NCBI RefSeq assembly: GCF_000315625.1
Contig: NW_005434552.1
Coordinates: forward strand, 1-45,775
Reading direction: 5' to 3'
DNA length: 45,775 nt
From: Guillardia theta CCMP2712
Taxonomy: Eukaryota; Protista; Cryptophyta
The notes beneath the pieces are model-generated. The model ran no database searches, was not told the origin of the DNA, and worked only from the letters and a program-made list of their open reading frames with translations. Shown here piece by piece: positions 14,720 through 45,256 of this stretch (position 1 is its first letter; each line of letters begins with the position of its first letter). Both the position numbers and the translations under genes were made by a program.

Positions 14720-14768
<49 letters not shown>

Positions 14769-26700: not shown

Positions 26701-27369
26701 ATGGACGGCTTTGATCCTGCCTCCGACAGCTCCATCCTGTCTCCTTCCCACAACAGCTCCAACGCCATCAACGGGAGCTCAGCTGACCCCTTCGAGCCAG
26801 GCTCACCTGTCTTCGTGCTGGACTCCTTCGGTCACATGCTGGGGGATCAGGCGGTCCATCAGCAGAGCATCGTGGTATCGGATGGCGCTACTTACACCTA
26901 CTCCATCAGCAGCAGGCCGTCCGTCCTCGACTCGGTCTGGAGCAGCCCACCCTTGCTGATAGTCTCAACCTCCTCGCCTACATCCGTAGACCTGTTCCTC
27001 AATGACACGGTCGCTGGCGGGTACTCCAACGGACAGCACACTGCTTTGCTGTCCTCTAGCACGAGAATGTTTGTCTGGAAGACGGATCCTCGCAAGCTCG
27101 CGGTGCTTGCAGGACCAGCAAGCGCAGCAGCCTCTTCGGCGAGCTTCACATCCTCAACACCAGCACCTGGCGTCAACGTCGGCGCCATCGTCGGCGGCGT
27201 GATCGGTGGCATCGTCGGAGCTGCTGGGCTCGGCATGCTGGCTTACAAGCTTTTCGCTCATAAGAAAGTCGCCAAGTCAGCGGATGTAGAGATGGCGCCG
27301 GTGTACGAATCTCAGGCGATCGCCTATCTCGTGCAGTACACTACACCACCTATAGAGAGCAGAACTTGA
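14619..27369 (+). CDS. Giant (~4,100 aa) type-I membrane/cell-surface protein; short first exon, intron ending 14869, gap at 16803-16902
   Basis: ATG at 14619 plus a phase-0 intron gives signal peptide MAVGQQ(..)VVVLILLLMSTASLA. The same repeat type (ICVTLR/ITISGL) occurs on both sides of the gap, and the 3446-aa ORF is open back to the gap. C-terminal TM VGAIVGGVIGGIVGAAGLGMLAY-KLFAHKK with a short tail. Confidence 0.82.
14660..14842 (+). repeat. (GAT)n microsatellite, probably intronic
   Basis: Imperfect GAT array between the putative donor (CAG|GTTGTT or AAG|GTTATG) and acceptor CGACAG|GTG at 14869. Confidence 0.85.
16803..16902. other. Assembly gap (100 N)
   Basis: Run of N within the giant gene. 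Confidence 0.99.
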
Positions 27370-28098: not shown

Positions 28099-28535
28099 TC
28101 ACTCGGCATCGCGTCGCTCGAGCACGGACCTGAGCCGTCGGCGCGCCTCCGCCATGCCCGCCGTCATGCTGCGCAAGGCCTTGCATCCGTCACGCTGTAT
28201 CCACCAGTCGTCCGGGTGTCTGGACATGGCGCTGACGACGGCCTCGATCGCTCCCGCCTCCCGCGCCCGCGCCTGGCTGTCAGCCATGCCCGCCGTCATG
28301 CTTTGAAGTGCTTGGCATGCTGACCATTGCAAGTATCTCTCGTCCGCGTGCGTGGACATGGCGCTGACGACGGCCTCGATCGCTCCCGCCTCCCGCGCCC
28401 GCGCCTGGCTCTCTTTGATGCGACTGACGGTATGTCTCAAGGCCCAGCACGCAGCCTGCTGTACGCCAGCGTCGTCCGCGTGCCTGGACATCGCCCTCAC
28501 TACCGCCTCGATCGCTCCCGCCTCGCGCGCCCGCG
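28099..28535 (-). pseudogene. 3' part (last ~3 ARM repeats and stop) of the interrupted U-box/kinase/ARM gene
   Basis: RAREAGAIEAVVxAMSxHADD 42-aa repeats nearly identical to those at 41348-42200, same strand. Confidence 0.88.
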
Positions 28536-29072
28536 GTTGAAGTAGGCCAGCGCCTCCACCTCCGTCTGCACCTCCTCGGTGAAGTGGATGTTGTGGAGGA
28601 ACGTCAGCCAGCAGCTGGTGTCCCCGAGGCTGTTCTGGTTGCACTCGACGATGTTCTCCTTGGCCCACCCCCAGTCCACGAAGGGGACGTCGATGCGCTT
28701 GGCCTTGAAGATCCGCTCGAACACCTCCCCGTGGCTGATCCCCTTCATGTTGCATATGATGAAGGCCGTGATCGAGGCGATGTGCTCGTAATCCACCCCG
28801 ATGTCCTTGCAGGTCTTGATGTACTGCCCCGTCACCCTGTTGCTGATGAACTTCCCGACCGCCTCCTGCGTGGGCTCGGTGGAGACGGGTATGTGCGCCC
28901 GCCTCGGGATGGACCCGCCTATCCCAACCTTGAGGAGCGCGTTGGGCTGCGGTTTCTTGCTGTTCCTGTCGATGAAGGAGAAGGAGCTGTGCTGTGACCC
29001 CACGACCTTCAGGTGCCTCATGTCCTTGAGCGCGTTGGTGTTGATGTTGTCTATGCCGCTGACGGTCGTCAT
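28536..29072 (-). CDS. Viral hypothetical protein, 3'-truncated at the left junction
   Basis: MTTVSGIDN...ALAYFNR, then runs out of frame into host ARM DNA; strong GC3 bias; TATATTTAC ~30 bp upstream. Confidence 0.7.
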
Positions 29073-29165
29073 TCTTGCTGTGTACGAGTTGGACACATTG
29101 TAAATATACAAGATTTCAATCGTAGCATATTTACGGTAATGTACATTGAGTAACGCGATTGGGCT

Positions 29166-29390
29166 ATGATATTTGCATTACTGGCTATAATATGCTGGTC
29201 AATTAGCATATTGCTATTGCTACATCATAAATGGAAGCATTCAAGGGAGGGTAAGGATTATATCCCTGACAATAATCTACAATGGTTTCAACCCGACGAT
29301 GTCTGCAACTCGCACTGTGCGCACGAGAAATGGATCGTGCTATTCGGTGTCATCGGTTTGGTCTTTCTTGTTCTGTCGCAGGTTGAATGA
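29166..29390 (+). CDS. Small two-TM viral membrane protein (74 aa)
   Basis: Two hydrophobic segments flanking WFQPDDVCN..HEKWI; TATTTAC upstream. Confidence 0.6.
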   Translation: MIFALLAIICWSISILLLLHHKWKHSREGKDYIPDNNLQWFQPDDVCNSHCAHEKWIVLFGVIGLVFLVLSQVE

Positions 29391-30099
29391 ATCTTACGGG
29401 TTCCTTCCTCTGCGTATCGATGTGCAGGACCCGGCAGAGGGTCCAAGGGTCGTGTCCCAGGTTGACGATGCACTCCACCTCGTGGGGGACGTTCTTGGTG
29501 AACCACTCGAAGTTCTTTGTCGCGCTCGCCTCGTGCCCTATCCATTGCAACGACACAAGCCCCTTGACATCCTTGAACATGCCCAGCAGTATCTGGTAGC
29601 GCTCCAGCGGGTCACTCGCCGCGACGCTCTCGCCCTTGTACATCGCGATGTCGTAGATCAACACCCTCGGCTCCATCCCTCTCTCCGTCCTGTCCTCTAC
29701 AAAGTGCGAGAGGATCATCGTGCACTCTGGCATGCGGTGACCCAGCATCGCGCACTCGGATGCGAAGAGTATGCGGCCCTTTATCCCCACATAGGTCCTC
29801 TTGCTGTCGTCGACGTAGAGCAGCACGGGGACCCTCTGCCTCGGCAGCCAGGTCGCCATCCTCACCTTCCCGCACTCGTCCGTGCACTCCCTCAGGTTCC
29901 GGCACCTCGGGTTGGTGCAGATGGGGTGTGTGCCCCGGTGGAACGCGTGGAGCTCCACCGCCGACTCCCTCGTCATCTCCGTCGGTATACCGAATACGTC
30001 GAAGGACTCGCATACGCAGAGGTGCACCACCGCCTTGGCCACCAGGGGGTCGCACTCCCATGAGGTCATGGGGGGCCAAGGCAGGGGTTGCCAAACCAT
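29350..30099 (-). CDS. Viral protein with a degenerate capping-enzyme/ATP-ligase-like nucleotidyltransferase segment
   Basis: VLIYDIAMYKGESV...PLERYQIL resembles motif IIIa and the following helix of guanylyltransferases/ligases; no KxDG; start uncertain. Confidence 0.5.
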   Translation of the reverse strand: MVWQPLPWPPMTSWECDPLVAKAVVHLCVCESFDVFGIPTEMTRESAVELHAFHRGTHPICTNPRCRNLRECTDECGKVRMATWLPRQRVPVLLYVDDSKRTYVGIKGRILFASECAMLGHRMPECTMILSHFVEDRTERGMEPRVLIYDIAMYKGESVAASDPLERYQILLGMFKDVKGLVSLQWIGHEASATKNFEWFTKNVPHEVECIVNLGHDPWTLCRVLHIDTQRKEPVRFIQPATEQERPNR

Positions 30100-30189
30100 A
30101 CCAAAAACACCCCGATCTACCCACTTCAACCCTTTTTATTTTGCATGGTGTTGTATTTAAACCGATTCTTTTGACTTCGAGGTGAGATC

Positions 30190-31431
30190 ATGAATACTTC
30201 CACATTCCTCCGTCTCTTGCCATACCTCCTACAATGGGGTTCGGTCTTCTTCCAGTACCGATATATGGAACACTTACTCACCGATGTCGCTGACGTCGCC
30301 GTCAGTGTCCACCTGTTTGTCTGCAACATGTGCACGGGCAACTACCTTGTATACGCCAACTTTGATAACCTCATGCTGGGTGTCTTGAGCATCTTCCTCT
30401 GGAGATGCACGATCCTCACCTTCCATTGGATGATCATCCCCAAAGAACCCACCAACGAGCTCTATGTGCCGCTGATGCTGCCCCTAGAGGCCATTTCCCT
30501 CTTCCGGATCATGATCATCCGCAAATATCTGCTGACAGCCAGCGTGAGCATCGAACTTATACCCCTGTTGATCCTCATGGGCCTGGAGCTTGTCTCCACT
30601 TACTTCACGACCAACGGCATCTGCCAGTGCCATTGGGAAAAATTGAACCTAAGCCTGGTAGTGGTGCCTACATTCTTCATGAAATTCTTCAACATGATGT
30701 ACTACCTGAACATCATTGGCATCTTCCATGTGATGTACGCGCTTCTATCGTTCATGAGCACTATGTATCTACTTATGGAGGCTGACACGTTGAATCTATA
30801 CAAACACACGGCCAGAATGGCCCAGTTGAAAAGAGATATAGTACTGCACGTCGAGACCGACCGCGGCATGGCGAGGAAAATCCTGGACGAGATAGACTCC
30901 GTGTCTATGTCCCTTGCAAAGAGCGATACCACCATCCGCGTGTTCATGGTCTTGTACATCTTATCGAGCTTGTTTTCGGTGCTCCCGAAATTTCACTTCT
31001 CGTACACCGACGTCGACAATTCAACCTGCATGCCGATATACGTAAAGGACAGCAAAGTCAACACAAAGATTCTCCACAAGAGGCTGCGTAATGCGTTCAG
31101 ACCCCTCTTCAAGCTTGCCATCGCATTCAATGCGATCGGATACGCCATCTGTGCCGTCATTATCGCGGTCTTCTATGTGGTCACCCAAAACTATGTTATC
31201 ACCATCTCATCTATCTGGGTATTATGGGTGCTCTCGTCGCTGCAAACAATGCACATTGGTGGTTTCTACCACTTTGTCAACCAGCTCAACAAGAGGAACC
31301 CTGACAAGAATAGGTACTTCGATATGATAACCGCCAATTCGATGAATAACGGCTGCTTCATCATCTATTGCCTGGCAATGTTGGTGATGTTCCCGACTTC
31401 ATACCGTACCATTGCCTATCTTTGTTGGTAG
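30190..31431 (+). CDS. Viral multi-pass membrane protein (413 aa)
   Basis: Long ORF with many hydrophobic segments; TATTTAA at 30154-30160. Confidence 0.75.
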   Translation: MNTSTFLRLLPYLLQWGSVFFQYRYMEHLLTDVADVAVSVHLFVCNMCTGNYLVYANFDNLMLGVLSIFLWRCTILTFHWMIIPKEPTNELYVPLMLPLEAISLFRIMIIRKYLLTASVSIELIPLLILMGLELVSTYFTTNGICQCHWEKLNLSLVVVPTFFMKFFNMMYYLNIIGIFHVMYALLSFMSTMYLLMEADTLNLYKHTARMAQLKRDIVLHVETDRGMARKILDEIDSVSMSLAKSDTTIRVFMVLYILSSLFSVLPKFHFSYTDVDNSTCMPIYVKDSKVNTKILHKRLRNAFRPLFKLAIAFNAIGYAICAVIIAVFYVVTQNYVITISSIWVLWVLSSLQTMHIGGFYHFVNQLNKRNPDKNRYFDMITANSMNNGCFIIYCLAMLVMFPTSYRTIAYLCW

Positions 31432-31544
31432 TCGATCCTAGAAATAAACGACACGTCCAACTGTGTGCATTGAGGCGCATGCGTGTATATATTCCCCTTC
31501 TCACCCTCCCTGACTTAGATACCCCCCGGCAGCCCGCCCCTACC

Positions 31545-31925
31545 ATGGCCGCGGTGCATGCGACGATGCCCTCAGACAACATCTTCTCGGGCATCAAGCC
31601 CGACGACAGGGTGGTGATCGAGAACGTGATCGCCGTGATGAAGACGCTGAGTCGCGACCTCTCCTTCTCGGATTTCGAGATCCGCAGCACCCAGAATGGC
31701 TTCGTGCTGATCGCCAAGACCTGCTCCCACGTGATGGTGGGGATGGCCGACCTGCAGGTGATCAAGGACTGCAACCCCGTGAGGATACAGAACGTAGCGG
31801 TGGCGTGGGGGGAGAACAACCGCCTTGCCGTGCATGTCAAGATCCTCAACAGCACGGCACCCGTGACCGTCACGGAGACCGACATCATACGCGTGAAGAG
31901 GAAGAGGCTGTGGGGGTTCCTATAA
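31545..31925 (+). CDS. Viral hypothetical protein with basic C-terminus (RVKRKR, NLS-like)
   Basis: ACCATGG start, GC3 bias, TATATATT upstream. Confidence 0.7.
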   Translation: MAAVHATMPSDNIFSGIKPDDRVVIENVIAVMKTLSRDLSFSDFEIRSTQNGFVLIAKTCSHVMVGMADLQVIKDCNPVRIQNVAVAWGENNRLAVHVKILNSTAPVTVTETDIIRVKRKRLWGFL

Positions 31926-31960
31926 ATGCCCTCCTTGTGCGCCAATCAGGAGGAGGGGAG

Positions 31961-32305
31961 ATGACCGAGGGCCATACGAGGGCTGGCAAGGAGGGCTACT
32001 TGCAGAAGATGGTATCGGAGCACATGTCTCTCCTGCAGGATCACATCGATTCATTGAAGGACCTAGGGGTAGATATCGAGGATGAGGCACAGCTGGAGCG
32101 GATACGCAGCTGCAGCAGCATGGCGGGGCTGCCCCCCCTCTACTCGCAGGTGATTCACCACATGGGGCATCCCTGCTACGACATACGGGTGACCGCCAAT
32201 GACTTCTGCGACGATGTCGACGTCGTCATCCGCTGCAACGCCGAGCTGCAGAGGATGCGGCTGCAGGCTCTACCCGATTTGGCGCCTCCCGCCTCTGGAT
32301 CTTGA
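31961..32305 (+). CDS. Viral hypothetical protein (114 aa)
   Basis: ATG ~35 bp downstream of TATAAAT at 31921. Confidence 0.6.
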   Translation: MTEGHTRAGKEGYLQKMVSEHMSLLQDHIDSLKDLGVDIEDEAQLERIRSCSSMAGLPPLYSQVIHHMGHPCYDIRVTANDFCDDVDVVIRCNAELQRMRLQALPDLAPPASGS

Positions 32306-32498
32306 GGAAGATCCGGTCCAGCAGCCGGGGCCTCGTGTTGAGGAAGGGGCAGGGGCACACCTCGCAGGGGCGTGTCGCCTTGGGGATGGGGCAGAAGATG
32401 CATTTCTTGGCCACAGGCATGATCCTTACCTTGAAGTAGCGCTGCATCCTGCCTGGCCTCTCCCTCGTTACTCTATGAGTTCCGATGGCAGTAAACAC
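32226..32498 (-). CDS. Small Cys-rich viral protein (CxxC...CxxC)
   Basis: CIFC...CEVCPC; fills the space between neighbours but overlaps the convergent ORF; start uncertain. Confidence 0.4.
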   Translation of the reverse strand: MFTAIGTHRVTRERPGRMQRYFKVRIMPVAKKCIFCPIPKATRPCEVCPCPFLNTRPRLLDRIFLKIQRREAPNRVEPAAASSAARRCSG

Positions 32499-32510
32499 TC
32501 TTTTTTCTCC

Positions 32511-33569
32511 TCACACCCTGTTGTCTGTCATCATGAATCCCATCTTGTCGAGATCCGTCACTGTCAGGCTCCTGATACACATCTTGATCAGGTTCTCCAC
32601 CTCGGTGATGCTCTTGCACTTCACGTTGAAGTAGGTCTTGAGGTGGGTCTCGATGGGCAGGAGCAGCTGTAGCTGTGGCATCTTGGGGAGCAGGATCACG
32701 TTGTGCATGAAGATCCCCATGCGCATGAGGTAGAGCGTGCCTATGATGAGCGTATTCTTCTTGATGGAGTTCATCGCCTGCCTGAACTTCTGGCTCAGCA
32801 TGTTCAGGAAGCGGCCGATGTAGTGAGTGCAGCGATCGGTCACGAACCTCCGGAGATCTTCCTGGAAGGTGATCGAGCAGACCCTGATCTTGTTGGTGGC
32901 GTGCAGGATCCGGGTGACGACGAGGCAGAGGTTGGGGATCTCGTTCCTGAGCTTGATCTCCCTCAGCGTCTTCCACATGAGGTGCTTGTGCTTCTGCTCC
33001 ATCCTCGACCTCTCCTGCAAGAAGCTGTTCCTCGCAACCTCAGACTGGAGTATCCAGTGGAGCCTGGACCTCACCTCGCTGCTCTCCACGTACACCTTGC
33101 ACTCGTCCCCGTGCCCGTGGAGATCCTCGATCACGATGTTGTCCATGAATTCATCCTTATTGAACCTCTTGGTGTGAACGCAGTTCCCCGTGATGGTACA
33201 GACCTGGCTGTCCTCCTCCTCGGACACGGGGCACACTCCCACCTCACACCGGTGGATCACCCCGCACTCCACACACCCCGCAAGGTCCATGTCGATGCAC
33301 TCCCATCGGCACCTGTGCCCCAGCAGCCCCTTGGGCAGCAGGAAGGGGGCGCTGATCCGGAGCCACAGCTGCGCCCTCTCGTCCTCGCATATCTTGCACC
33401 TCTTGCAGTTGGCACACCAGCTCACCCACTTCTGCACGCAGCGCCGGCATATCTTGCAGTCGTCGCATGCCCGCATCGAGGCCCTCGGGTGAAAGGAGGC
33501 CCCAGCCGTTGACCCAGTCTTGGACATTCTTTTTTTAATGGATTCAAATACCCTACCTCCTGTTACCAC
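32511..33569 (-). CDS. Cys-rich Zn-binding protein with herpesvirus UL92/ORF31-like motif (putative viral transcription factor)
   Basis: CVECGVIHRCEVGVCPVSEEEDSQVCTITGNCV matches the CxxCxxxHxC-x(n)-C-x(n)-VCxxTG signature of the UL92 family; real start possibly at MSKTG (~33527). Confidence 0.65.
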   Translation of the reverse strand: MVTGGRVFESIKKRMSKTGSTAGASFHPRASMRACDDCKICRRCVQKWVSWCANCKRCKICEDERAQLWLRISAPFLLPKGLLGHRCRWECIDMDLAGCVECGVIHRCEVGVCPVSEEEDSQVCTITGNCVHTKRFNKDEFMDNIVIEDLHGHGDECKVYVESSEVRSRLHWILQSEVARNSFLQERSRMEQKHKHLMWKTLREIKLRNEIPNLCLVVTRILHATNKIRVCSITFQEDLRRFVTDRCTHYIGRFLNMLSQKFRQAMNSIKKNTLIIGTLYLMRMGIFMHNVILLPKMPQLQLLLPIETHLKTYFNVKCKSITEVENLIKMCIRSLTVTDLDKMGFMMTDNRV

Positions 33570-35310
33570 CCCTGATCCTTGCCTCCAGCCTGTGCCTGTC
33601 GTAGGCCACGGCCGATCGGCAGAAGTCCTTGATGTCCACCACGAACCTCATGATATGCGCCGGAAGCGAGTGCTTGGAGCACACATAGATCTGCACGTTG
33701 GCGCCGATCTCCGTGTTCAGCAGCGTGTGCCACTCCAGGTTCGTCGTCTTCCCGCACCTCACGCAGCACCTCTTCTTCGAGTGGGCGACGGGCCGGGAGA
33801 CGGCGTGCCTGCAGTCCGTGCAGGTGAACTCGGTGCCCGTGAAGTTCCACCTCCGGCACTTGCCGCAGATGGGGCAGAGGTAGTAGCTCACGTTCTGGAT
33901 CATCAGTATCTTCCCAAGCATGTTCACGGATATGATCGTGGAGTCGAGGTTGCAGTTGGTGCATATCAGCCGCTTGGTCTTCATGCAGAGGCGGAGCTTC
34001 GAGTGGATCCACTCCCCGTTGCCCTTGTTGCAGCACCTGAGGCAGATGTGGACCCTCATGACGTTGTTGAACTGGGCGTAGTCGTCGCTGTACTTCTCCA
34101 GCAGCATCTGGCACTGGTAGGCGACGAGGTTCGAGGGGAGCGTGTAAACCCGGCACCGGGAGTGTATGTGCTCGATGATGTTGAACTCCTCCACGGTGAG
34201 CTCGGGGTAGATGTTCCGGTAGATGTTCCACAGCACCCCCGGGATGGTAGTGCAGCGCATCTCGCTCGCATAGTAGAACATGTCCACCTGATTGTCCGCG
34301 AGCCTCTTCCACTTGCCTCCCATGTCTCTCTGCACGGGGGCCCTCCCCATGCGGAACTTGCAGGTCCGGATGCATCGGTCGACGCTGACGGTGGCCGCGT
34401 TGTTCAGTGACTTCCAGTCCCACTCGCACGACTGCAGGTTCTCCTGCCTGAAGCCGTCGGCGATGTTCGGGAAGATATCCATGAACATCGTCATCCCGTG
34501 CACCTTGCTGATCGCCTCCCTCTCGGTCACGAGGTTCTGGTTGCACATGAACCATACGTATTCCATCATGGCCAGCTTCAGGAGGTTGAGGTTGTTGAAG
34601 AGGAAGCGGGCCTGCAGGCTCAGGCTCTGGGTCATCGCCTGCCTGAGCTCCCCGGCTACCCTCACCCTGCACCAGAAGGATGGCCTCTTGGCCGTGTTGG
34701 GGTAGAGGCCCATGAGGAGCCCGTGGAGGATGTTCAGGAGGACGGTGCAGTGGGGATGCTGGAACTCCTTCTCGTCCATGAAAGTCACCCGGTTGCGCTT
34801 CAGGCAGGGCATGCTGTTGCACACGACGTTGACGATGAGGTTTGACTTCCAGTTCCTCTCGACAAGGCTCTGCATGATGAACCTCCCTATGTCCGGCAGG
34901 TTCCGGTGGCTGTAGGCCGCAACGGGGTGCAGGATCAGGCCCTCGGTGGGTAGCCGGTGGTATAGCTCCGGGTGGTACTGGGCGAGCCAGCACAGGATCA
35001 GCCGGCTGTCGATCAGGTGCTGAGCCTTGGCATCCCCCGAGTTGATCCTCCGGTGCAGGACCTCTAGCTCCCTGTCTATCGTCGCGTTCTGCGGGCAGAA
35101 GCGCCCAGCGCCGGGCTCCGAGACGGTGTCACCCGCCCCTCTCTGGTCTGTATCACACTCTTCGAGCGGCTCGGGCAGGTCCGCCGCCGTAGCCTCCGAT
35201 ATCGGGTAGATATCCACGGGCTCCCTCTGGCATCTCACCAAGATGATGCTCTGGGCCTCCCGCGTTCGATCACCCATGTGATGCAGCGTCTCGAACCAGG
35301 AGGGGCTCAT
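33553..35310 (-). CDS. Viral protein (585 aa) with C-terminal multi-CxxC Zn ribbons
   Basis: ICLRC, ICTNC, LCPICG, CTDC, CVRCG, VCSKH; its start overlaps the stop of the upstream gene (ATGA). Confidence 0.78.
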   Translation of the reverse strand: MSPSWFETLHHMGDRTREAQSIILVRCQREPVDIYPISEATAADLPEPLEECDTDQRGAGDTVSEPGAGRFCPQNATIDRELEVLHRRINSGDAKAQHLIDSRLILCWLAQYHPELYHRLPTEGLILHPVAAYSHRNLPDIGRFIMQSLVERNWKSNLIVNVVCNSMPCLKRNRVTFMDEKEFQHPHCTVLLNILHGLLMGLYPNTAKRPSFWCRVRVAGELRQAMTQSLSLQARFLFNNLNLLKLAMMEYVWFMCNQNLVTEREAISKVHGMTMFMDIFPNIADGFRQENLQSCEWDWKSLNNAATVSVDRCIRTCKFRMGRAPVQRDMGGKWKRLADNQVDMFYYASEMRCTTIPGVLWNIYRNIYPELTVEEFNIIEHIHSRCRVYTLPSNLVAYQCQMLLEKYSDDYAQFNNVMRVHICLRCCNKGNGEWIHSKLRLCMKTKRLICTNCNLDSTIISVNMLGKILMIQNVSYYLCPICGKCRRWNFTGTEFTCTDCRHAVSRPVAHSKKRCCVRCGKTTNLEWHTLLNTEIGANVQIYVCSKHSLPAHIMRFVVDIKDFCRSAVAYDRHRLEARIRGGNRR

Positions 35311-36178
35311 TGAAAATCCTCCCAGGCGACGCGGTGCTGCTTCAGGTACTTCATCCCCATGTTATTCAGGCACACGCTGTAGCGGTTGCGCTGGTGTGCG
35401 ACGATGGGGAGGGGCATGCACTGCACGGGGCCCCCGACCGGGCAGGTGAGCATGACCTGCTTCGCGTACTCTCCGGGCTGGTCGCATATGTTCCCGTGGC
35501 TCTGTATGATGCCGTTGAACCGGCTCCCTCGGTAGGTGATGTCGTAGAACATGCTCTGTGTCAGCTTCCTGAGGCAGAGGACACACAGTTGCTGTATAGG
35601 ATAATGCGTCAGTGGCTTCCCTCCCTCCCTCTCCTCACCTGTTCCAGGGGCTGCGGGTCGTTGGGGAGGAGGAATTCGACGCATGTGAATGGCATGTTGG
35701 CATCGATGAACATACACTCGCAGTTGATGCCCATGGAGCAGGGCCTCTCGTGCTCCAATGGCTCCCTCATGTGCATCTCCTCCCATGCCTTGGTCACCAC
35801 CTTGACTGGAGGGACCTGGGGGAAGCAGCTCTCGTTGTAGGCCCCGAACAGGCTCTGCATCATCTTCACGTAGGGCTGCCTGGAGATGATGCTGTCCAGC
35901 GCCAGCGACTGCCCCTCCGAGGTCCCCGCCGAGCGGATGCAGCAGCGTATGTCGTTGTAGAGGCAGTCGTTCACTACGACCTTCTCCGAGTCGTCCGTCA
36001 CATCCGGGGTGACGCTCTCCGCCTTCTCACTGTCGGCCGACTCCGTCTCCTTGGGTGGGGGGTCGATCCGGTGCTTCTTCCTGTTCCTCTTGGGGTTGCT
36101 CCCTCCCTCGTTGGGGGTGGCAACGGTGGAGGAACCGGTGGCCCTCTTGGCCCCCACCCAATTCTCTGGTATGTTCAT
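35307..36178 (-). CDS. Two-exon viral Cys-rich protein (exons 36178-35639 and 35591-35307; ~274 aa)
   Basis: Removing the 47-nt intron joins REPLEHERPCSMGINCEC...EFLLPNDPQPLEQ to QLCVLCLRK...PGEY in frame; NLS-like PKRNRKKHR. Confidence 0.78.
35592..35638 (-). other. 47-nt spliceosomal intron inside a viral gene
   Basis: CAG|GTGAGG donor, CACTGAC branch, TATACAG| acceptor, phase 0; contains the stop codon of ORF 35609-36178. Confidence 0.8.
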
Positions 36179-36399
36179 GCCTGCCTAGATCGGAATGCCC
36201 AAGATGCCGAGCGTACAGATCAGCACCACAGATATGGACACTAAGAAGAGCGGGTAGCAGACCAGCAGAATCAACCCCCTGCGGTCGAAAACAAATGAAC
36301 CCCTGTGCAGCACAATACTCGAGAGATCCTCCAACTCTACGGGCATTCAGCTGCGGCGTGAGGCACGGGCAGGACATAGGATACACACAAATTTTTTTT

Positions 36400-37443
36400 T
36401 TATTTCATCATCGTCCTCATCGCAGTGGTGAGTATCTCGATCACCATGATCCACAGCATCACCACGATCACCGTGTCGTTGGCATGCAGGGTGTTGACGA
36501 CCTTCTGTATCATGCCGAGTATGATGTTGATGATGAGAAGCACGGAGAGCTCCGTGATCGCGCTGGAGCTGGGGAAGAAGGATGACACCGCCTTGAGGAT
36601 GAGGATCAGGAATCCCGAGACCACGATCATGGCCGTCTGATTGATATTCTGCAGCACCACCATGTTGTACACCTGAGACGCCCCCTGCCAGACGGCATAG
36701 TCCCGCATGGCCGAGAATTGCTCGTACACCATGGAGATGGCATCGAACAGCACCAACAGGCTCACGAGCTGCGTAAGCTGCGGGAAGCTGTCACTGGAAT
36801 GCACGTTCACCGTCCAGCTGGAGAGGATCATCATGTTGGTGAGGGAGAGCGTGAAGGCCTTCGAGAGCACCACGTTGATCTCACTCCATCTCCCTCCCTG
36901 GCTGTTGCTGAGGTTGTACATGACCACAAATCCCGCCATGCTGAGGAAGGGGAGCGTCCAGCCGAAGGAGACGCGCTGGATGATGAACTCCGTGTTGCTG
37001 GTAAACATGAAAAGCACGAGCCTCATGAACTGGGCGCCGTCCTCGGATTCCTTGAACGCACCGGGTAGAAGGGTAAGGAGTATCAGGACACACAGCGATA
37101 TGGACAGGCACTCGATCTGGGCCCTGGCATTGGCGGTCTCTAGATCCTGAGGCTGGAGCGATTGGATGATCGCCTGAGTGGAGATCAGGGTGGCGAACTT
37201 CTGGAATATCCTGGAGAGGTACTCTATGCTCTTCGAAGCGCTGGACTCGTAGGAACCACTCTTCAGTAGCATCCTGATGTTGTAGGCCATGAAGGCCACA
37301 AGGATGTTGAGATAAGCGATGACGCCCTTATCCAGCGACTTCCTCAGTAGCGCATAGAGGAAGCGCACGATCGTGTACATCAGCGCCCCCTCGATCCTCT
37401 GCGACATCTGGAGAACGTCACCGAACATTGTAGACTGCATCAT
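36400..37443 (-). CDS. Viral multi-pass membrane protein (347 aa)
   Basis: Roughly 9-10 hydrophobic segments; stop followed by an A-tract. Confidence 0.75.
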   Translation of the reverse strand: MMQSTMFGDVLQMSQRIEGALMYTIVRFLYALLRKSLDKGVIAYLNILVAFMAYNIRMLLKSGSYESSASKSIEYLSRIFQKFATLISTQAIIQSLQPQDLETANARAQIECLSISLCVLILLTLLPGAFKESEDGAQFMRLVLFMFTSNTEFIIQRVSFGWTLPFLSMAGFVVMYNLSNSQGGRWSEINVVLSKAFTLSLTNMMILSSWTVNVHSSDSFPQLTQLVSLLVLFDAISMVYEQFSAMRDYAVWQGASQVYNMVVLQNINQTAMIVVSGFLILILKAVSSFFPSSSAITELSVLLIINIILGMIQKVVNTLHANDTVIVVMLWIMVIEILTTAMRTMMK

Positions 37444-38260
37444 TGTATTTCAGGTAGCCCTTGCCTACGAAATCTTTAAATGTGCGAGTTCCTCTACCCG
37501 CATCCAGCCAGATATAGAGCGCCTCGTGCCTGTATTCTTCATCGCTCTGTAGCTTAAAGCAGAGCATGGTGACATCACCAGCAGGGTCTATCACCATCCC
37601 ATCATCCGAGGCAACGACCACACCGTCAGCCCTGATGCACTGGATGCGATCGACATTCAACATAAACTTCCAATCCGAAGTGAGCAGAAAATACATACCC
37701 CCGATATGAGAAAAGATCCGGTCCAAGACGGGATTCCTCTTGTAACGATCACTCCTCATGTAGAATTCGGTACAGATCTTGTTGCGTAATTCCGCATCCA
37801 TTTGGTTAATGCCGTCGTCTGGTTTAGGTAGGATGCTGAGGTTCTCAGGATGATCGACATTCATCACAAATATGATCATGTCCGAGGATGTCTCGGTGAA
37901 TGGCTTGCCCTTTGCGCCGTCGTATGCACGCTGGAATGCATCCGCGTCTGCAACGGATGAGAGCATGGTTGTGAGCATGTACAGCTTGGGTATGGCCTCC
38001 CACGGGCAGCAGTTCAAGACTATGTCGTGCTTGACGCGGTCTGTGATCGCGATGATCTCACCCGATACCCTGGCGTCCTCCGCTTCCTTGGCGGCCTGTA
38101 TTCTGGCTTTCTCTTCACTGGCGGCCTGCTCCCTGGCGGCCTGCTCCTTGGCGGCCCTGGCGGCCTGCTCCTTGGCAGCCCTGGCGGCCTCGGCCCTGGC
38201 GGACGACCTCTTGGGCGCTGCATTGGGTTCGTTATCCCCTTGCCTCTTCTTTGCAGGCAT
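37418..38260 (-). CDS. Viral hypothetical protein (280 aa) with basic N-terminus and AARAAKEQ repeats
   Basis: MPAKKRQ; 24-bp tandem repeat encoding a helical linker. Confidence 0.7.
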   Translation of the reverse strand: MPAKKRQGDNEPNAAPKRSSARAEAARAAKEQAARAAKEQAAREQAASEEKARIQAAKEAEDARVSGEIIAITDRVKHDIVLNCCPWEAIPKLYMLTTMLSSVADADAFQRAYDGAKGKPFTETSSDMIIFVMNVDHPENLSILPKPDDGINQMDAELRNKICTEFYMRSDRYKRNPVLDRIFSHIGGMYFLLTSDWKFMLNVDRIQCIRADGVVVASDDGMVIDPAGDVTMLCFKLQSDEEYRHEALYIWLDAGRGTRTFKDFVGKGYLKYNDAVYNVR

Positions 38261-38356
38261 CTCACAGTCGCACTTCGGGGTTAGTTTTATACCGCGACAA
38301 GCCGTTCCGCAACCATATATTTAAGTTCAAGAACAGGGGTGAGGGGCAGAGAGCGA

Positions 38357-39286
38357 ATGAACGGCCAAACCGGTCTTTCGCAGCAGGCCCTGGCCTCCAA
38401 CAACAACCAGAACGTCTTCAACAGCGATGTCTCACCCGAGGAGCTCTACTCCAACGCACCGATCACCATCCGCAGGAGGATCCACGTCAACATCTCCGGC
38501 ACCATGGCCAACTTCCAGAAGCAGGGGGAGCTGGCCGCCACCTGGAAGCCCCGTGAGGGTAAGCAGGCGTCCGTCTTCGGCCTCTACGATGCCTTTGACA
38601 ACTCCCTTGATCACCAGACCGCCACCAACGCGCTGAAGGGGGCGATGATCAAGAAGGCCACCGTGCTCGAGTACAAGAGCACCTTCCCCGTGCCGCTGGG
38701 CATCTCCGTCAGCTGCCTGAACCCGGATGAGGCCACCGACACCGGAGAGAGGTACGTGATGACCGCCCTCCCCATGACGACCAACACCAACCCGCTCGTC
38801 ATCCACGAGTCCGACAGCTCATCCAACGAGAGCATGGAGTGGAGGAGCAAGTACCCCGACTACAACGAGCAGAACCTCGAGACCGAGGGCGTCATCAACC
38901 TCGATAAGCGCTACTATATGTTTGTGCACCAGAACCACCCCGTGATCGAGATGCTCAGGTGCAACAAGGACATGCTCTCGGCCAACATCGACGAGCAGCC
39001 CCTGGTCGACGGCCAGTACTACAAGATCGCCAACACCGTGATGAGGGCCATGTGCAACGCGCTGAGGACCAAGGTGCTCTCCAAGGTATCCACCCGTGAC
39101 TTGAACAGCTTCCAGGTGCAGCTCCACCGCATGAATGGAAAGTCCTGGGACCGCATCGGCAAGGACGAGTTCGGGGATATCGTGGGGAAGAACGACCAGT
39201 CCTCCGTGGAGAAGATCAACGAGGCCCTCAATCAGCACTGCACCTTCACCTCCCGCGTGGAGTTGGAGTACGAGATCCAGACCTAG
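38357..39286 (+). CDS. Probable abundant virion protein (beta-rich; possibly the conserved mirusvirus jelly-roll protein)
   Basis: Extreme GC3 bias like the MCP; motifs KSTFPVPLG and HPVIEML; TATTTAA at 38318-38324; close to the MCP. Fold assignment is tentative. Confidence 0.55.
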   Translation: MNGQTGLSQQALASNNNQNVFNSDVSPEELYSNAPITIRRRIHVNISGTMANFQKQGELAATWKPREGKQASVFGLYDAFDNSLDHQTATNALKGAMIKKATVLEYKSTFPVPLGISVSCLNPDEATDTGERYVMTALPMTTNTNPLVIHESDSSSNESMEWRSKYPDYNEQNLETEGVINLDKRYYMFVHQNHPVIEMLRCNKDMLSANIDEQPLVDGQYYKIANTVMRAMCNALRTKVLSKVSTRDLNSFQVQLHRMNGKSWDRIGKDEFGDIVGKNDQSSVEKINEALNQHCTFTSRVELEYEIQT

Positions 39287-39309
39287 GTGAGTTGTTTTTT
39301 TTATTGAAT

Positions 39310-39636
39310 TCATTCTACCCGGTCTACCCTCAGGTTCAGCGTGCAGAACTTCCCGTAGGTGTAGCTCTGGCACACCAGCCCCGGTCCGCAATCCCTGTCA
39401 TCGAGGCAGGCGGAGAGGTGCTGCGGGTAGCCCCTGTCTCTGACGATCCTCCTGAATCTCACGTGCATCTGGTCGTCGAACTGTGCGGGATGGACGGGAC
39501 GCAGCTGCATGATCGCCATATAGCCGATGCTGGCATCGAGCAGCAGCAACAACAGCGCGAGCATGACGGTAATCCCTCCCATGCTCACATGCCAAGGCCG
39601 GATCACCCGGTTGTTATATATCGATGCAACACGCAT
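39310..39636 (-). CDS. Small membrane-anchored protein with C-terminal disulfide module
   Basis: TM ITVMLALLLLLLDASIGYMAI followed by CLDDRDCGPGLVC...C. Confidence 0.55.
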   Translation of the reverse strand: MRVASIYNNRVIRPWHVSMGGITVMLALLLLLLDASIGYMAIMQLRPVHPAQFDDQMHVRFRRIVRDRGYPQHLSACLDDRDCGPGLVCQSYTYGKFCTLNLRVDRVE

Positions 39637-39757
39637 TGCAAACCACGGCGCACCCTGTAATGGGAGAGCTAACTCGTACTCTGCAAGCTTGTCTTGATTT
39701 TTTGGATGTATATAAACTAGGGTAACCACGAGCACATCAAAACCCCCGCTCGTCGGT

Positions 39758-41347
39758 ATGGAGGGTAATACACAGGAGAGCCGTGGCTTCACCGATAATT
39801 TCATGCTGCCCAAGGGTGACATCGGTGTCAACCTCGCGGGCACCATGACAGCCAACAGCACCATGCCCACCATCCAGGACTATGAGAACATCTTTGGTCC
39901 CGCCGCGAGGCAGATCAAGTTCGACCCCCAGAGGCACAAGAGGCACCAGCGATGGCACCTCCCCGACGTCCTCCAGGGCTCCAACACCTTCCTCACCGAC
40001 CGCGTGGATGGTCTCATCACCGATGCCACCAACTCCCCCTTCACCAGCGTGATCCTCCCTTATGTCTACCTTGAGAACCCCGATCAGAAGCTCAAGTGGA
40101 ACATCTGGAGGTTTGACGAGGGTATGGCCACCCGCGTGCCCTACGAGTCTGCAGCCAGGGTGCTGACCCAGAGCAAGACCAGCCAGTCCGCCTACATCGT
40201 CAGGCAGGGTATGGCCCTCCGCATGGAGCACAACTTCATGATGTCCGCCGCGGGCAGGGAGAACTTCAAGCGGCAGCTGATGCAGCTCGTTGGGTCCATC
40301 CAGAAGACCAACGACCTCGATGTGCATCAGGCCCTGCTGCTGGCGCCGTCCTACGAGGCTCACCTCAGGGAGAAGTACCACACCACGGAGAAGACGACCC
40401 TCCAGCTCATCCGCCAGTACGTCGACAACTACGGGCTCATGCAGAAGCATCCGAACGCACTGGACATCATGATCGAGGATGCCAAGAACACGCTGAAGAC
40501 CTGGGGATCCCCACCGCCGTCCTTCATGATGTGCAACGGAGCCCTCACCATGCAGATGACGTTCAACCCGGAGAAGACACAGTACTACACCAACGGCATC
40601 AGCGGGCCCATGCTCCTGAAGCAGGGGCCGGAGCTGCCGAGCTACCGCGGCCTGAGCATCATCCACTCCCGCAAGTTCGAGATCAACCAGGGAGAGCAGC
40701 CCAGGGATGTCCTGAGGAGGAGGTCCAGGGTCGCCGAGCACTACAGGATCAACGGGTACGTCAGGGATCTCCACGACAAGCGCTTCCGCTTCTACGACCA
40801 GTCCAAGGACTCCAACTTCGACCTGACCTTCCCCGAGCTGATGGAGCTGTCGTGGCTGGATGGCCCGAACCCTAGTGGCTGGGACGCAAACGATGACAGC
40901 ACCCATGCAAGGACACATCAAAGAACGCAGGCGGGAGGCCATGAACAGGCCTCCTACGTCCGCCCTGGATTCGCGCTGAACTCCCACTTTGACATCTCTG
41001 AGAGCTTCCGCCCACTGGACATCGGGGTCCACCACCCAGGTGTGGTCTCGGAGAGTGCCAGGCGCTACGGAGAGACGGTGAGCTCCATGAAGCACAACAT
41101 CTACGACCTCAACGAGAACCGCCTTGAGCACAAGCCCGATGGCGCCCTCCAGATCTCCGCGGGGATGAACTGCATCTCCCCCTCCAACATCATGAGCACG
41201 GAGAGCGTCAACTCGATGATGACCAACAACCAGGGCCTCCTGCACTGGACCGCGCACCAGTTCCGATCGCTGCACTCGACGATCAAGGCCACGCCCGAGC
41301 GGATGGACATGGTGTGCAGGGAGGCTACGCTCCTCAAGCTCAAGAGG
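39758..41347 (+). CDS. Mirusvirus-type HK97-fold major capsid protein, 3'-truncated at the right junction
   Basis: SPFTSVILP..KWNIWRFDEGMATRVPYESAARVLT..RQGMALRMEHNF...GRENFKRQLMQLVGSIQKTNDLDVHQALL matches my recollection of Mirusviricota MCP N-terminal motifs. Strongest codon bias in the insert; TATATAAA at 39709. ORF residues past 41347 are antisense host ARM DNA. Confidence 0.75.
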
Positions 41348-43438
41348 ACCCCAGCGTCTTCCGCGTGTCTGGTCATGGCGCTGACGACGGCCTCGATCGC
41401 TCCCGCCTGCATGGCCGGGAGCTTGTTCTGCTCGTGGCTCTCGGCTATCGCTGTCATCACCTCGCATAGACCTTGCTGTATCTTCGCGTTGCTGTGGTGC
41501 CTGGTCATGGCGCTGACGACGGCCTCGATCGCTTTCGCATCTCTCGCTGTGCCCTGGTATCGGAAGTACTGCATTGTGTACTTCAGGGCCTCACAAGCAG
41601 CCTGCTGTACTTTCAAGTCGTTCGCATAACTTGACATGGCGCTGACGACGGCCTCGATCGCTCCCGCCTCTCGTGCCCGCGCCTGGCTCTCATCCCTGAA
41701 GCTGATAGTGTTCTTCAGAGCCTCGCACGCAGCCTGCTGTACCCCCACGTCGTCTGCGTGCCTGGTCATGGCGCTGACGACGGCCTCGATCGCTCCCGCC
41801 TCTCGTGCCCGCGCCTGGCTCTCTTTGATGACACTGATGGTATGTCTCAGGGCCCAGCACGCAGCCTGCTGTACCCCCGCGTCGACTGCGTGCCTGGACA
41901 AGGCGCTGACGACGGCCTCGATCGCTCCCGCCTCTCGCGCCTGCACCTGGCTCTCGTCCCTGAAGCTGACAGTGAAGCGCAAGGCTTCGCACGCAGCCTG
42001 CTGTACCCCCGCGTCGTCCGTGTGCGTGGTCATGGCGCTGACGACGGCCTCGATCGCTCCCGCCTCTCGCGCCTTGAGCTTGTCAGCCTCCCCGTGCTGA
42101 GCCATGCTGACCAAGGCTTCGCACGCAGCCTGCTGTACCTCCGCGAGAGCCTCGTACGTCCTCATCTCCTGCATCACCGCCTCTATGCTGTCGTCAGCTC
42201 CCGTCCTCAGCAGCCTCCATGCCTCCCTTGCCGGCTGCTCCATCCCGACCGGCAGCGCCTGAGCTCCCGTCCTCAGCGAGCTGAGAGCGTCGCTGCCCGT
42301 GGACTCCAAGGCGATGCAAGCTGACTCTTGCAGCTCCACGAGCTCTGCGTACTTGCGCTTCCTGACTCTCCTCGCCACCGCCTCGATCCCTCCCCCCGCT
42401 GCCTCTCCGATCCTTCTCCATGCAGCTTCTGCCATGCTGCGTATGCCTCGGCATAGCGACTGGTTGCCGGCCCCTGCCCGCTGCTGTCCAGGCGTCCTGT
42501 CTGACCATGTCCATGCAGCAGCCCCCTCATCCTCCTCGGCTCCGGCTCTTCCTACAGCTACCGCAAGCTCGGCGAACCTCGGGCGGTCCTCCTCCCTCGT
42601 CGCCCAGCAGCTCTCCAGCAGGGCCCACAACCCGTCCGGGCACCCTCCGAGGAGGTGCTCTCGAGGCAGCCTCCCACCCCCGCACACGTACCCGATCACA
42701 GTCGGGTCCGTCATGGGGTAGTAGGGGGTCATGCCCGAGGTCAGGATCTCCCAGCACGTGACCCCGTAGGCCCACACGTCGCTCTTCTCCGAGCACCGGC
42801 CTCTCTGCATGGACTCTGGGGGCATGTAGCGCACCGGCAGCGCTCGCCCCGCTACCCTCCCGTCACTCCCGTCCACCAGCTCCCCTGCCCGCCCGTACCC
42901 CGCCACCTTCACCGACGTCCTCCCCACGTCCTCCTTGTCGAAGCCCATGACCAGCACGTGCCGAGCCGCGAGGTCCCGGTGCACGACCCGCTGCTCAGCC
43001 AGGTGCTCCATGCCCTGCGCGATCTGCTCCATCATCGCCATCTGGTGCCCTCGCGTCACCTGCCCCGCCAGCCTCCCCAGCAGAGCCTCTCTCAGCGACC
43101 CCAGCTCGGCGAGCTCGGTCAGCAGCAGGGGACAGCCGTCGGCGTCGTGGCTCTGCCCCATGTAGCGTACAAGCCGAGGATGCGGCCCGAGTCTGAGCAT
43201 GACCGCGGCTTGTCTGCCGCCGTCGTCTTGCCTGAGCTTGAGCACGGCTACCTTGATCTTGCCGGGCCCTGCTCTCTTTCCTTGCACGCGGAGGTGACCT
43301 ATGTAGAGGGTCTGGGAGGAGCCTGCTGAGATAGGCTGCCCCTCCATCTCCACGTCGTGCCTGGGGACGAGCAGCGCGTGTCGCTCCTGCCACTCCTGGA
43401 TGGCGCTGCGGAGAGCGAGGTTGGGGACAAGGTGGTCG
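41348..43438 (-). pseudogene. Middle part of the host U-box / tyrosine-kinase-like (pseudo)kinase / ARM-repeat gene
   Basis: The frame upstream of 43353 reads DHLVPNLALRSAIQEWQE (U-box C-terminus); kinase motifs HRDLAARHVLV, PVRYMPPE, SEKSDVWAYGVTCWEI; 42-aa ARM repeats. Cut by the LTR at 43439 and by viral DNA at 41347. Confidence 0.88.
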
Positions 43439-44073
43439 TGTCACACCTCGAAGATTCTCGAGTGGACCTTCAAGCGCAGTTCAATAAGAACTCACGTTGG
43501 ATTTCTCTACTAAGAGGGAAAGCGGTGAAACAGAAGGAGATCTAACTCTCTTTTATTTCTTTCACACACACACACAAAACAAGACAAGACGATACACACA
43601 AAGACGTCTCAACAATCGTGGCACACACACGAAAGGGGAAGAGGACCACCTAGCTCTGACGAGTTTCATCCTTTTATAGCTTCGAGGAATGAGCCAGGGG
43701 TGCCGTCTCTTGGCTACAGAAAGGAGGGGTGTCCTGTTCTTGGAAGTTGACAAGCATCCCTTCTGACCTTCGAGAGGATACCATGCTCTCTCGCAGGGAA
43801 GAGAACCCCGTCCTTGCATGGCAGCAAGCTGCTTCCAACGGGTCGTACTGCACAAGACGCACCCCTTCTGTTTACCTTGTAAGTCCCCCACGGGTACACG
43901 GTTGCTGCAACAAAGGCCTCCACAGGGGTCCTTTCAGCAGCTTCACACTGGAGTAGAGTATCCTGGGTCATCCAGGAGAAGTCAGCTTCGAACACGAGTA
44001 CGAGACAGCCAACTGTCCTTTCATCCTGATAGGCCTTTGTCTGACTCGGGCTCGGTTCCTATGAGCTCTGACA
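43439..44073 (-). repeat. 3' LTR (~635 bp; inner boundary inferred)
   Basis: TGTCA...TGACA terminal inverted repeat, preceded on the minus strand by purine-rich AGAGAAGAGCG (PPT-like); appears identical to the second copy over ~487 bp. Confidence 0.72.
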
Positions 44074-45250: not shown

Positions 45251-45256
45251 ATTTTA

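What the first reader, a model, noticed from the sequence alone, without database searches (positions are those of the whole stretch)
28536..41347. Intact 12.8-kb mirusvirus-like genome fragment integrated inside a host ARM-repeat gene
Seen: about 15 densely packed ORFs with no evident stops or frameshifts, flanked on both sides by halves of the same minus-strand ARM array. Knowledge: the 39758 ORF resembles the HK97-fold MCP of Mirusviricota, the herpesvirus relatives that infect protists. Inference: a recent endogenisation that names this alga as host of a specific mirusvirus lineage and preserves a block of mostly unannotated structural and transcription genes.
Basis: partly seen in the sequence, partly recalled or inferred. 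Interest (0 to 1): 0.92.

Follow-up and report, generated by a model that had tools for sequence, protein, structure and literature searches.

The report
Cut-off mirusvirus fragment in cryptophyte gene
A 12.8-kb, 13-gene piece of a herpes-related algal virus (likely a mirusvirus), cut mid-gene at both ends, sits inside a repeat gene of the alga Guillardia theta; it likely entered recently by DNA-break repair, and this alga was already published as a mirusvirus carrier.

Summary
The viral block is real; 'intact' and 'names a new host' are not. The capsid ORF is 100% identical to a Guillardia theta gene model, and this assembly is already listed as carrying mirusvirus capsid genes (PMC10827195). 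Window 28536-41347 holds 13 genes. All hit capsid-bearing metagenomic contigs, 11 of 13 in the same order in one close relative, L001 (capsid 93% identical). A compact capsid homolog folds like herpes/HK97 capsids (Z 9.8). Both ends cut through genes: the capsid keeps 530 of about 1230 residues, the left gene 179 of about 470. Contigs of one run bridge both junctions; a second study's contigs fall one base short of the bridging rule. Junctions are blunt, with 59 nt (mod 132) of ARM repeat missing and no target duplication. Not found in the papers searched: one apparent frameshift is a 47-nt GT-AG intron absent from 11 relatives; G. theta carries at least two more mirusvirus pieces; a full-length Hanusia phi capsid falls in the same clade. 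The block looks silent. Verdict: a recent, likely dead fragment of a cryptophyte-infecting mirusvirus.

The parts
28099..28535 (-). Host gene, C-terminal ARM repeats and stop (left flank); begins one base into an Ala codon at the junction
   Evidence: Pfam Arm E 3.5e-9; tandem period 132; junction phase
28536..41347 (.). Whole viral insert, 12,812 bp, 91% coding, 13 genes
   Evidence: junctions
28536..29072 (-). v01, viral gene of unknown function, cut at residue 179 of about 470 by the left junction
   Evidence: homologs P0347/P0348 of 479/465 aa; a second genomic copy runs on past 28536
29350..30099 (-). v02, possibly a capping-enzyme/ligase-type nucleotidyltransferase fold (weak lead)
   Evidence: homologs in 5 of 80 loci; profile search of PDB: 6 of 6 hits are capping enzymes or DNA ligase 4, but E 0.15-0.98
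30190..31431 (+). v03, hydrophobic (predicted multi-pass membrane) protein
   Evidence: C-terminal 100 aa 48% identical to the start of L001; no Pfam hit
31545..31925 (+). v04, conserved small protein of unknown function
   Evidence: 94% identical to L001, dN/dS 0.09
31961..32305 (+). v05, small variable protein
   Evidence: 59% identical to L001
32511..33527 (-). v06, Cys/His-rich herpes UL92-like protein, likely a late-transcription factor
   Evidence: Pfam PF03048 22.2 bits vs cut-off 21; 9 of 12 family members hit at E<=0.05; homologs in 16 of 80 loci
33553..35310 (-). v07, 585-aa protein with C-terminal CxxC pairs, unknown function
   Evidence: 86% identical to L001; 11 of 80 loci; no usable Atlas hit
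35307..36178 (-). v08/09, one two-exon gene (274 aa once the insert is left out)
   Evidence: single 282-aa ORF in L001 and unbroken match in 10 more loci; open frame without the insert
35592..35638 (-). 47-nt predicted spliceosomal intron: GTGAG donor, CTGAC branch motif, TACAG acceptor
   Evidence: exact 47-nt gap against L001; sequence; only such motif hit inside the block
36400..37443 (-). v10, hydrophobic (predicted multi-pass membrane) protein
   Evidence: 86% to L001; 51% to a paralog next to the second G. theta capsid gene
37418..38260 (-). v11, fast-evolving protein
   Evidence: 37% to L001, dN/dS 0.53
38357..39286 (+). v12, most conserved gene, often just upstream of the capsid gene; likely structural, unassigned
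   Evidence: 98% to L001; 29 of 80 loci; alignment; no significant PDB profile hit
39310..39582 (-). v13, about 90-aa protein with hydrophobic N-terminus and Cys-rich C-terminus
   Evidence: same frame and length in L001
39758..41347 (+). HK97-type major capsid protein gene, cut at residue 530 of about 1230; the ORF then runs 93 codons into antisense ARM DNA
   Evidence: equals gene model GUITHDRAFT_146309 over its first 433-aa model
41348..43438 (-). Host gene, N-terminal part: U-box remnant, tyrosine-kinase-like domain, ARM repeats; cut two bases into a Val codon at the junction
   Evidence: Pfam PK_Tyr_Ser-Thr E 1e-48 and Arm; 77% identical to P0147, which carries Pfam PF04564
43439..45556 (-). 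LTR retroelement remnant (chromodomain, Tf2-like SH3) inserted in the U-box of the same host gene
   Evidence: identical 300-nt direct repeats 43439-43738 and 45257-45556; Pfam Chromo and SH3_Tf2-1; paralogs continue differently at 43438

Best explanation
Window 28536-41347 is a 13-gene piece of viral DNA, cut through a gene at each end and joined bluntly to a U-box/kinase/ARM gene of Guillardia theta, and it is likely a recently captured, silent, non-functional fragment of a cryptophyte-infecting mirusvirus patched into a chromosome break by non-homologous end joining. Shown: viral gene content and order, both truncations, junction sequence, no target-site duplication, purifying selection on the path to L001, no visible decay. 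Inferred: the virus replicated in the nucleus (intron; likely order Styxvirales); broken viral DNA was ligated into a double-strand break in the ARM array with loss of 59 nt plus a whole number of 132-nt repeats; the cell survived; and the insertion was tolerated because the host gene belongs to a multicopy family and this copy is also broken by an LTR element.
For: Host: 100% match to a G. theta gene model. Viral origin: 14 of 14 ORF pieces hit capsid-bearing metagenomic loci; 12 of 14 lie colinear in L001 at 76-88% nucleotide identity. Fold: AlphaFold model of homolog P0003 (64% identical over 72% of the window ORF; mean pLDDT 67) has best match HHV-6B capsid, Z 9.8, rmsd 6.7, 410 aligned; 48 of 50 listed rows are titled as virus, phage or encapsulin shell structures. 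Junctions: run X2 contigs 39296-41398 and 28495-28667 bridge both with 51 and 41 host bases and 0 differences; X1 (another study, 2021) has an unbranched 6,940-nt contig 34438-41377 and one at 28506-28656, each with 30 host bases. No shared bases between viral and host sides at either joint, using L001 and the second genomic copy as stand-ins for the lost viral ends. Recency: dN/dS 0.02-0.19 in 8 of 10 pieces compared; 0 window-only changes at 232 near-invariant capsid columns; window-derived vs L001-derived amino-acid changes 8:7, 0:2, 10:7 in three genes; no stop in about 9 kb bounds neutral divergence at about 1%. Silence: RNA run X17 depth 0-0.04 over the block against 9.0 and 60.7 in flanking bins.
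Against: The empty site was not seen, so same-gene origin of the flanks and the size of the target deletion are inferred. X2 may be the data behind the assembly, and X1 is one base short of the tool's 31-base bridging rule; no long read spans the block. The model of the window's own truncated capsid was poor (pLDDT 49), and Foldseek gave no match at E<=0.001 for the homolog. No mirusvirus HMM was available, so phylum and order rest on fold, gene content and literature. v05 and v11 have dN/dS 0.30 and 0.53. Only about 6% of one RNA run, one condition, was read. Blunt ends fit break repair but do not exclude later trimming of a larger insert.
Confidence: 0.7

Rival explanations
1. A larger or whole provirus integrated here and was later trimmed on both sides by deletions or by recombination among ARM paralogs, leaving this remnant; the two flanks may come from different paralogs.
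For: Both ends cut mid-gene; ARM halves out of register; flanks are multicopy (contig depth 382-800 vs 61-98 in the block, a hint only); a second near copy at about 92-96% identity extends at least 3.5 kb beyond the left junction.
Against: Needs two further events within a time too short for one stop codon or window-only change at conserved sites; ARM-ARM recombination cannot itself make virus-ARM joints; N-terminal and C-terminal halves are in the orientation and order of one gene.
Confidence: 0.17
2. The host keeps the fragment because it is useful, for example as a source of antiviral small RNAs or a dominant-negative capsid stub, or as a domesticated gene block.
For: No decay; G. theta holds several related mirusvirus pieces; the neighbourhood is rich in immune-like repeat genes.
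Against: Almost no RNA in run X17; seven further same-species runs guessed to be RNA hold 0.00-0.02 of the words (no proof of absence); conservation is fully explained by selection in the virus before capture; codon use still matches L001 (GC3 0.84-0.92 in core genes).
Confidence: 0.07
3. Assembly chimera: a free or episomal virus in the culture was joined to host ARM repeats by the assembler.
For: Both ends fall in a repeat family; no single contig or long read spans the block.
Against: A free virus would continue past capsid codon 530, yet the X1 contig runs unbranched from 34438 through the joint into ARM DNA; the same joints stand in two studies ten years apart; joint contigs have depth like the interior (64.5 and 76.6 vs 61-98); virus and ARM share no sequence that could mislead an assembler.
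Confidence: 0.04

Closest known systems
Endogenous mirusvirus capsid clade E03 of cryptophytes (Zhao et al., PMC10827195; passages, results part, Table 1 and supplement rows seen)
   Same: Same host assembly listed; HK97-type capsid in a cryptophyte genome; judged a recent insertion.
   Different: The text seen gives no scaffold, junction, truncation, gene order or intron for G. theta; whether this locus or the full-length copy (GUITHDRAFT_118897) is among its 18 E03 sequences could not be told (figures not held).
Styxvirales (Medvedeva et al., PMC12768974; sections 7, 8, 10 and passages seen)
   Same: Marine and freshwater mirusviruses with GT-AG introns, CTGAC branch consensus and variable intron positions among close relatives; heliorhodopsin and RING genes, both present in L001; its four earlier genomes cite the lake study whose subclade 3 falls in E03.
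   Different: Order not tested with their models; the capsid gene here has no intron in the part kept; their database counts one chromosomal integrant and names no host for the order in the text seen.
AurliV-2, chromosomal mirusvirus integrant of Aurantiochytrium (PMC12606086; search listing only)
   Same: Mirusvirus DNA in a protist chromosome.
   Different: AurliV-2 is described as a genome-scale element with expressed genes; this is a 12.8-kb, doubly truncated, apparently silent piece.
Giant endogenous viral elements of nucleocytoviruses in algae (Moniruzzaman et al. 2020; seen only as cited in PMC12768974)
   Same: Large viral DNA blocks in algal chromosomes, often silent, sometimes with introns.
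   Different: Different viral realm (double jelly-roll capsid); there introns signal decay after integration, here the single intron sits in an undecayed fragment and more likely came with the virus.
Metagenomic contig L001
   Same: Closest relative found: 12 of 14 ORF pieces colinear, capsid 93% identical, dS about 0.3-0.7 in core genes.
   Different: Full 1230-aa capsid and 9 kb more viral genes; no intron in v08/09; extra heliorhodopsin between perfect 48-nt direct repeats; free or endogenous state unknown.

Membership tests
Mirusviricota | HK97-fold major capsid protein with herpes-like floor and inserted tower | tested here: met
   Met on homolog P0003 (64% identical over 72% of the window ORF): best match HHV-6B capsid Z 9.8, rmsd 6.7, 410 aligned; 48 of 50 rows virus/phage/encapsulin shells. 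The window's own truncated model was too poor to test; Foldseek E-values not significant.
Mirusviricota | Capsid groups with reference mirusvirus capsids (HMM or tree with named references) | not testable with these tools
   No mirusvirus HMM or named reference on hand; no Pfam or PHROGs hit. Indirect: the same assembly is listed as MCP-positive in PMC10827195; 520 environmental homologs at E<=0.001.
Mirusviricota | Terminase, portal, triplex 1/2, maturation protease | tested here: inconclusive
   None recognised among the 13 genes by Pfam, PHROGs or PDB profile; dedicated models not available; v12 is a candidate structural gene. PMC10827195 supplement marks the assembly positive for triplex 2 and maturation protease somewhere.
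Mirusviricota | Core accessory genes (heliorhodopsin, C3HC4 RING) | tested here: inconclusive
   Absent from the fragment; both present in the colinear relative L001 (PF18761 E 2.8e-12, PF13920 E 7e-11).
Mirusviricota | Unicellular eukaryotic host | tested here: met
   Joined to a G. theta kinase/ARM gene; carries a spliceosomal-type intron.
Styxvirales (putative order) | Placement in the MCP-terminase-portal tree; lack of replication and transcription genes; CTGAC-type introns | tested here: inconclusive
   One CTGAC intron; no polymerase seen in 12.8 kb or in 20 kb of L001, too little to count; six contig or host names searched in 9 of 10 held supplement files gave 0 hits and three large tables were unreadable.
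Endogenous viral element | Covalent host-virus junctions supported by sequencing data | tested here: met
   X2 contigs bridge both joints (51 and 41 host bases); X1 contigs reach 30 host bases past each. No long read.
Integrase-mediated provirus | Defined viral ends, target-site duplication, complete genome | tested here: not met
   Both ends fall inside coding sequence, no duplication, 59 nt mod 132 of target missing.
Nucleocytoviricota GEVE | Double jelly-roll major capsid protein | tested here: inconclusive
   No double jelly-roll structure among the 50 listed rows, whose top match is a herpes capsid; an unlisted family is not formally excluded.

The most novel reading that the evidence does not exclude
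G. theta CCMP2712 has been hit repeatedly and recently by one narrow mirusvirus lineage of Guillardia/Hanusia-type cryptophytes and may still carry a near-complete latent or episomal member of it. The 47-nt intron was gained by the virus from this host's splicing system before capture. If so, a standard, sequenced laboratory alga is the host in which a Styxvirales-type virus could first be induced or isolated, and the predicted nuclear, spliceosome-dependent, polymerase-free life cycle tested.
Probability: 0.15. Interest if true: 0.75.

Novelty: new member of a known kind. Interest (0 to 1): 0.4.

Why it matters
The headline (cryptophytes, and this assembly, carry mirusvirus capsid genes) is in print. 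What this locus adds is resolution. It ties a cultured alga to a virus lineage with a near-identical environmental member (93% capsid identity, same gene order) and to a Hanusia phi sequence, so it narrows the host of one clade. It shows at base level how a virus with no known integrase can leave DNA in a chromosome. It gives an intron present in one virus and absent in its sister, in a known host, which is the comparison PMC12768974 says is missing for tracing where mirusvirus introns come from. It is not a reactivatable provirus.

Tried and rejected
No whole genome is held for this window, so other viral blocks and the empty site could not be searched directly. Viral-contig scans with the capsid protein and its alignment found no relative. 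PHROGs: nothing meaningful for 14 ORFs. PDB sequence-profile searches: capsid alignment, one chance-level hit; v12, weak CARD hits E>=0.03; v06, nothing below E 1.5. Atlas: v12 resembles F-actin capping protein alpha at 0.91, a score shuffled proteins reach 4-10 times in 100, kept only as a lead; v07 no usable hit. The AlphaFold model of the truncated window capsid was low confidence and not searched. A homolog search with the host ARM part returned no G. theta paralog, so the intact architecture past the joint is unknown. The idea that the window lost a heliorhodopsin after integration was rejected: in L001 that gene lies between two identical 48-nt repeats that share L001-specific bases, pointing to a recent gain there. 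A 22-nt match between the intron's 5' end and host DNA at 13116-13137 is a purine-rich simple repeat and was not taken as a source. The Rhodomonas salina capsid P0331 does not group with this clade, so 'one clade for all cryptophytes' was rejected. The two large upstream ORFs (14645-27369) have no tblastn hit in the 80 viral loci, so no viral origin is claimed. Two look-ups of earlier scan findings returned nothing. Paper searches: 'Guillardia theta'+'mirusvirus' gave 2 papers; 'mirusvir'+'cryptophyt'+'host' gave 11, 9 listed; some searches were broader. None of the texts read describes this locus; the Current Biology version of Zhao et al., all figures, bioRxiv supplements and three large tables of PMC12768974 were not seen and may.


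Full report
Host and setting. The ORF at 39758 is 100% identical over 433 residues to gene model GUITHDRAFT_146309 of Guillardia theta CCMP2712, so the window is from this cryptophyte alga. No whole genome was held. The block lies in a repeat-rich region. On its right is the N-terminal part of a minus-strand gene with a U-box remnant, a tyrosine-kinase-like domain and ARM repeats (Pfam; 77% identical to P0147, which has the whole U-box). On its left are the last ARM repeats and the stop codon. An LTR element with identical 300-nt repeats cuts the same gene in its U-box at 43439.

Observation. The 132-nt ARM array ends at 28535 and resumes at 41348. Between them lie 13 genes covering 91% of 12,812 bp. 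All 14 ORF pieces tested hit at least one of 80 metagenomic loci fetched by the capsid (80 best of 534 confirmed; tblastn E<=1e-4). Twelve of the 14 pieces (11 of 13 genes) lie in the same order and orientation in contig L001, at 76-88% nucleotide identity.

It is not intact. L001's capsid is 1230 residues and relatives run 1249-1269; the window's stops matching at residue 530, exactly at 41347, and lacks the conserved C-terminal part. The left gene has 179 residues; its two best homologs have 479 and 465. A second copy in G. theta sequencing data matches 28536-28656 with 5 differences and then runs on for 3.5 kb in non-ARM sequence (X1 record of 3,693 nt, also in X5). Its loose end, read by hand, continues the viral frame and resembles the next residues of P0347. 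So both ends are cuts through coding sequence.

Capsid identity. Pfam, PHROGs and a PDB profile search gave nothing. The model of the truncated protein was poor (pLDDT 49). I therefore folded the compact homolog P0003 (678 aa, 64% identical over 72% of the window ORF; 109-sequence alignment; pLDDT 67). Foldseek gave no match at E<=0.001, though herpes and phage capsids fill the top ranks. The full structural search ranked the HHV-6B capsid first (Z 9.8, rmsd 6.7, 410 aligned), and 48 of 50 listed rows are titled as virus, phage or encapsulin shells. With a eukaryotic host, heliorhodopsin and RING genes in L001, and the published listing of this assembly, mirusvirus is the best reading. No mirusvirus HMM was available for a direct test.

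Junctions. Run X2 has contigs 39296-41398 and 28495-28667 that bridge both joints with 51 and 41 host bases and no differences. X2 may be the assembly's own data. The X1 contig is unbranched for 6.9 kb, so no copy of this capsid gene continuing past codon 530 is evident. No listed piece spans the whole block. The host gene is cut two bases into a Val codon and resumes one base into an Ala codon; against an intact repeat, 59 nt (mod 132) are missing. There is no target duplication and no shared base at either joint, taking L001 and the second copy as stand-ins for the lost viral ends. The empty site was not seen.

Age and activity. Against L001, dN/dS is 0.02-0.19 in 8 of 10 pieces and 0.30 and 0.53 in two variable genes, with dS about 0.3-0.7 in the core. 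The window has no private change at 232 near-invariant capsid columns (45 differ in both window and L001). Polarised amino-acid changes split 8:7, 0:2 and 10:7 between window and L001 in three genes, with 18, 4 and 31 unpolarised. No stop in about 9 kb of checkable coding DNA bounds neutral divergence since capture at about 1%, or 0.35% if indels are assumed at a tenth of substitutions. RNA run X17 (about 6% read) gave depth 0-0.04 across the block against 9.0 and 60.7 in flanking bins.

An intron. ORFs 35612-36178 and 35310-35786 are one gene: L001 has a single 282-aa ORF, and the window differs by an exact 47-nt insert at 35592-35638 with a GTGAG donor, CTGAC branch motif and TACAG acceptor. 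Leaving it out gives an open 274-codon frame. All 11 loci with this gene match in one unbroken frame. Splicing is predicted, not shown. PMC12768974 (section 8) reports GT-AG introns across mirusviruses, CTGAC as the Styxvirales branch consensus, and variable positions among close relatives. Given the lack of decay, the intron more likely came with the virus than arose after capture.

Lineage. On the N-terminal 372 residues, FastTree (238 sequences) and IQ-TREE (50 sequences: 17 chosen, 33 random) give a clade of window + L001, a second G. theta capsid (P0340, GUITHDRAFT_118897, full length, 69% identical) with its environmental relative P0223, and four 1258-1269-aa capsids including a Hanusia phi EukProt record (P0226). 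FastTree support is 0.999-1.0; IQ-TREE labels on these branches are 99.6/100 or higher. The trees are midpoint-rooted with no named references. A Rhodomonas salina capsid falls elsewhere. G. theta thus holds at least three mirusvirus pieces: this one, a 92-96% copy of its left part, and a more distant virus with a whole capsid gene. Whether the Hanusia record is genomic or transcribed was not determined.

Other genes. v06 passes the Pfam cut-off for herpes UL92; that UL92 serves late transcription in beta- and gammaherpesviruses is recalled. v02 has only weak hits, all to capping enzymes or a ligase. v12 is the most conserved gene and is present in 29 of 80 loci, often just upstream of the capsid; it is likely structural but unassigned.

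What is known. PMC10827195 (passages, results, Table 1, supplement rows) lists G. theta GCA_000315625.1 in clade E03 with two other cryptophyte assemblies. PMC11465185 (passages) places six lake mirusvirus genomes in E03 and proposes cryptophyte hosts. PMC12768974 (sections 7, 8, 10) predicts nuclear replication without a viral polymerase for Styxvirales; that this virus belongs there is my inference. PMC10132985 (passages) defines the phylum's hallmark genes. 10.1101/2025.04.19.649669 (passages) does not name Guillardia. No text read describes this locus, but figures and several supplements were not seen.

Verdict. A real, recent, doubly truncated and apparently silent mirusvirus fragment, most likely ligated into a break in a dispensable multicopy host gene (0.7 for that route; about 0.95 that it is a true insertion). 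The host link is published; the junction anatomy, the close environmental sister, the intron difference and the several copies are useful additions. Interest 0.4.

Noticed in passing
L001:759-2256: A heliorhodopsin gene (841-2109) sits between two identical 48-nt direct repeats of the upstream gene's 3' end, which points to a very recent gene gain by duplication-flanked insertion in the environmental virus.
   Followed up: partly
window 14645-27369 (+): Very long intron-free coding stretch (814-aa and 3351-aa ORFs around an N gap) with a hydrophobic N-terminus, repeated motifs and a C-terminal membrane segment; no Pfam hit, no hit in the viral loci, several copies by contig variants, and RNA reads at its 3' end. 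Unusual for an intron-rich genome (recalled).
   Followed up: partly
window 153-4757 and 8243-11510 (-): Tandem duplicated genes with a weak ADP-ribosyltransferase-like N-terminal domain (E 0.004, below cut-off) followed by 105-nt ankyrin repeats; immune-like architecture.
   Followed up: no
window 43439-45556: Short LTR retroelement with identical 300-nt or longer repeats, chromodomain and Tf2-like SH3 remnant; the first repeat region has strong RNA signal (depth 60.7).
   Followed up: partly
P0340 (GUITHDRAFT_118897): The 1742-aa G. theta gene model fuses a v10-like membrane gene and a full-length mirusvirus-type capsid gene; likely a mis-joined model over a second viral block on a 191-kb scaffold.
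   Followed up: partly
window 28599-28634 and 31644-31680: Contigs in G. theta runs match here with loose ends or clustered differences, signs of further diverged viral copies elsewhere in the genome.
   Followed up: no
window 6106-6879 (+): SNF2-related helicase fragment between the duplicated ankyrin genes (Pfam E 2e-37).
   Followed up: no
P0331: A Rhodomonas salina EukProt record is a 1089-aa capsid of a different mirusvirus-like clade, suggesting more than one lineage infects cryptophytes.
   Followed up: partly
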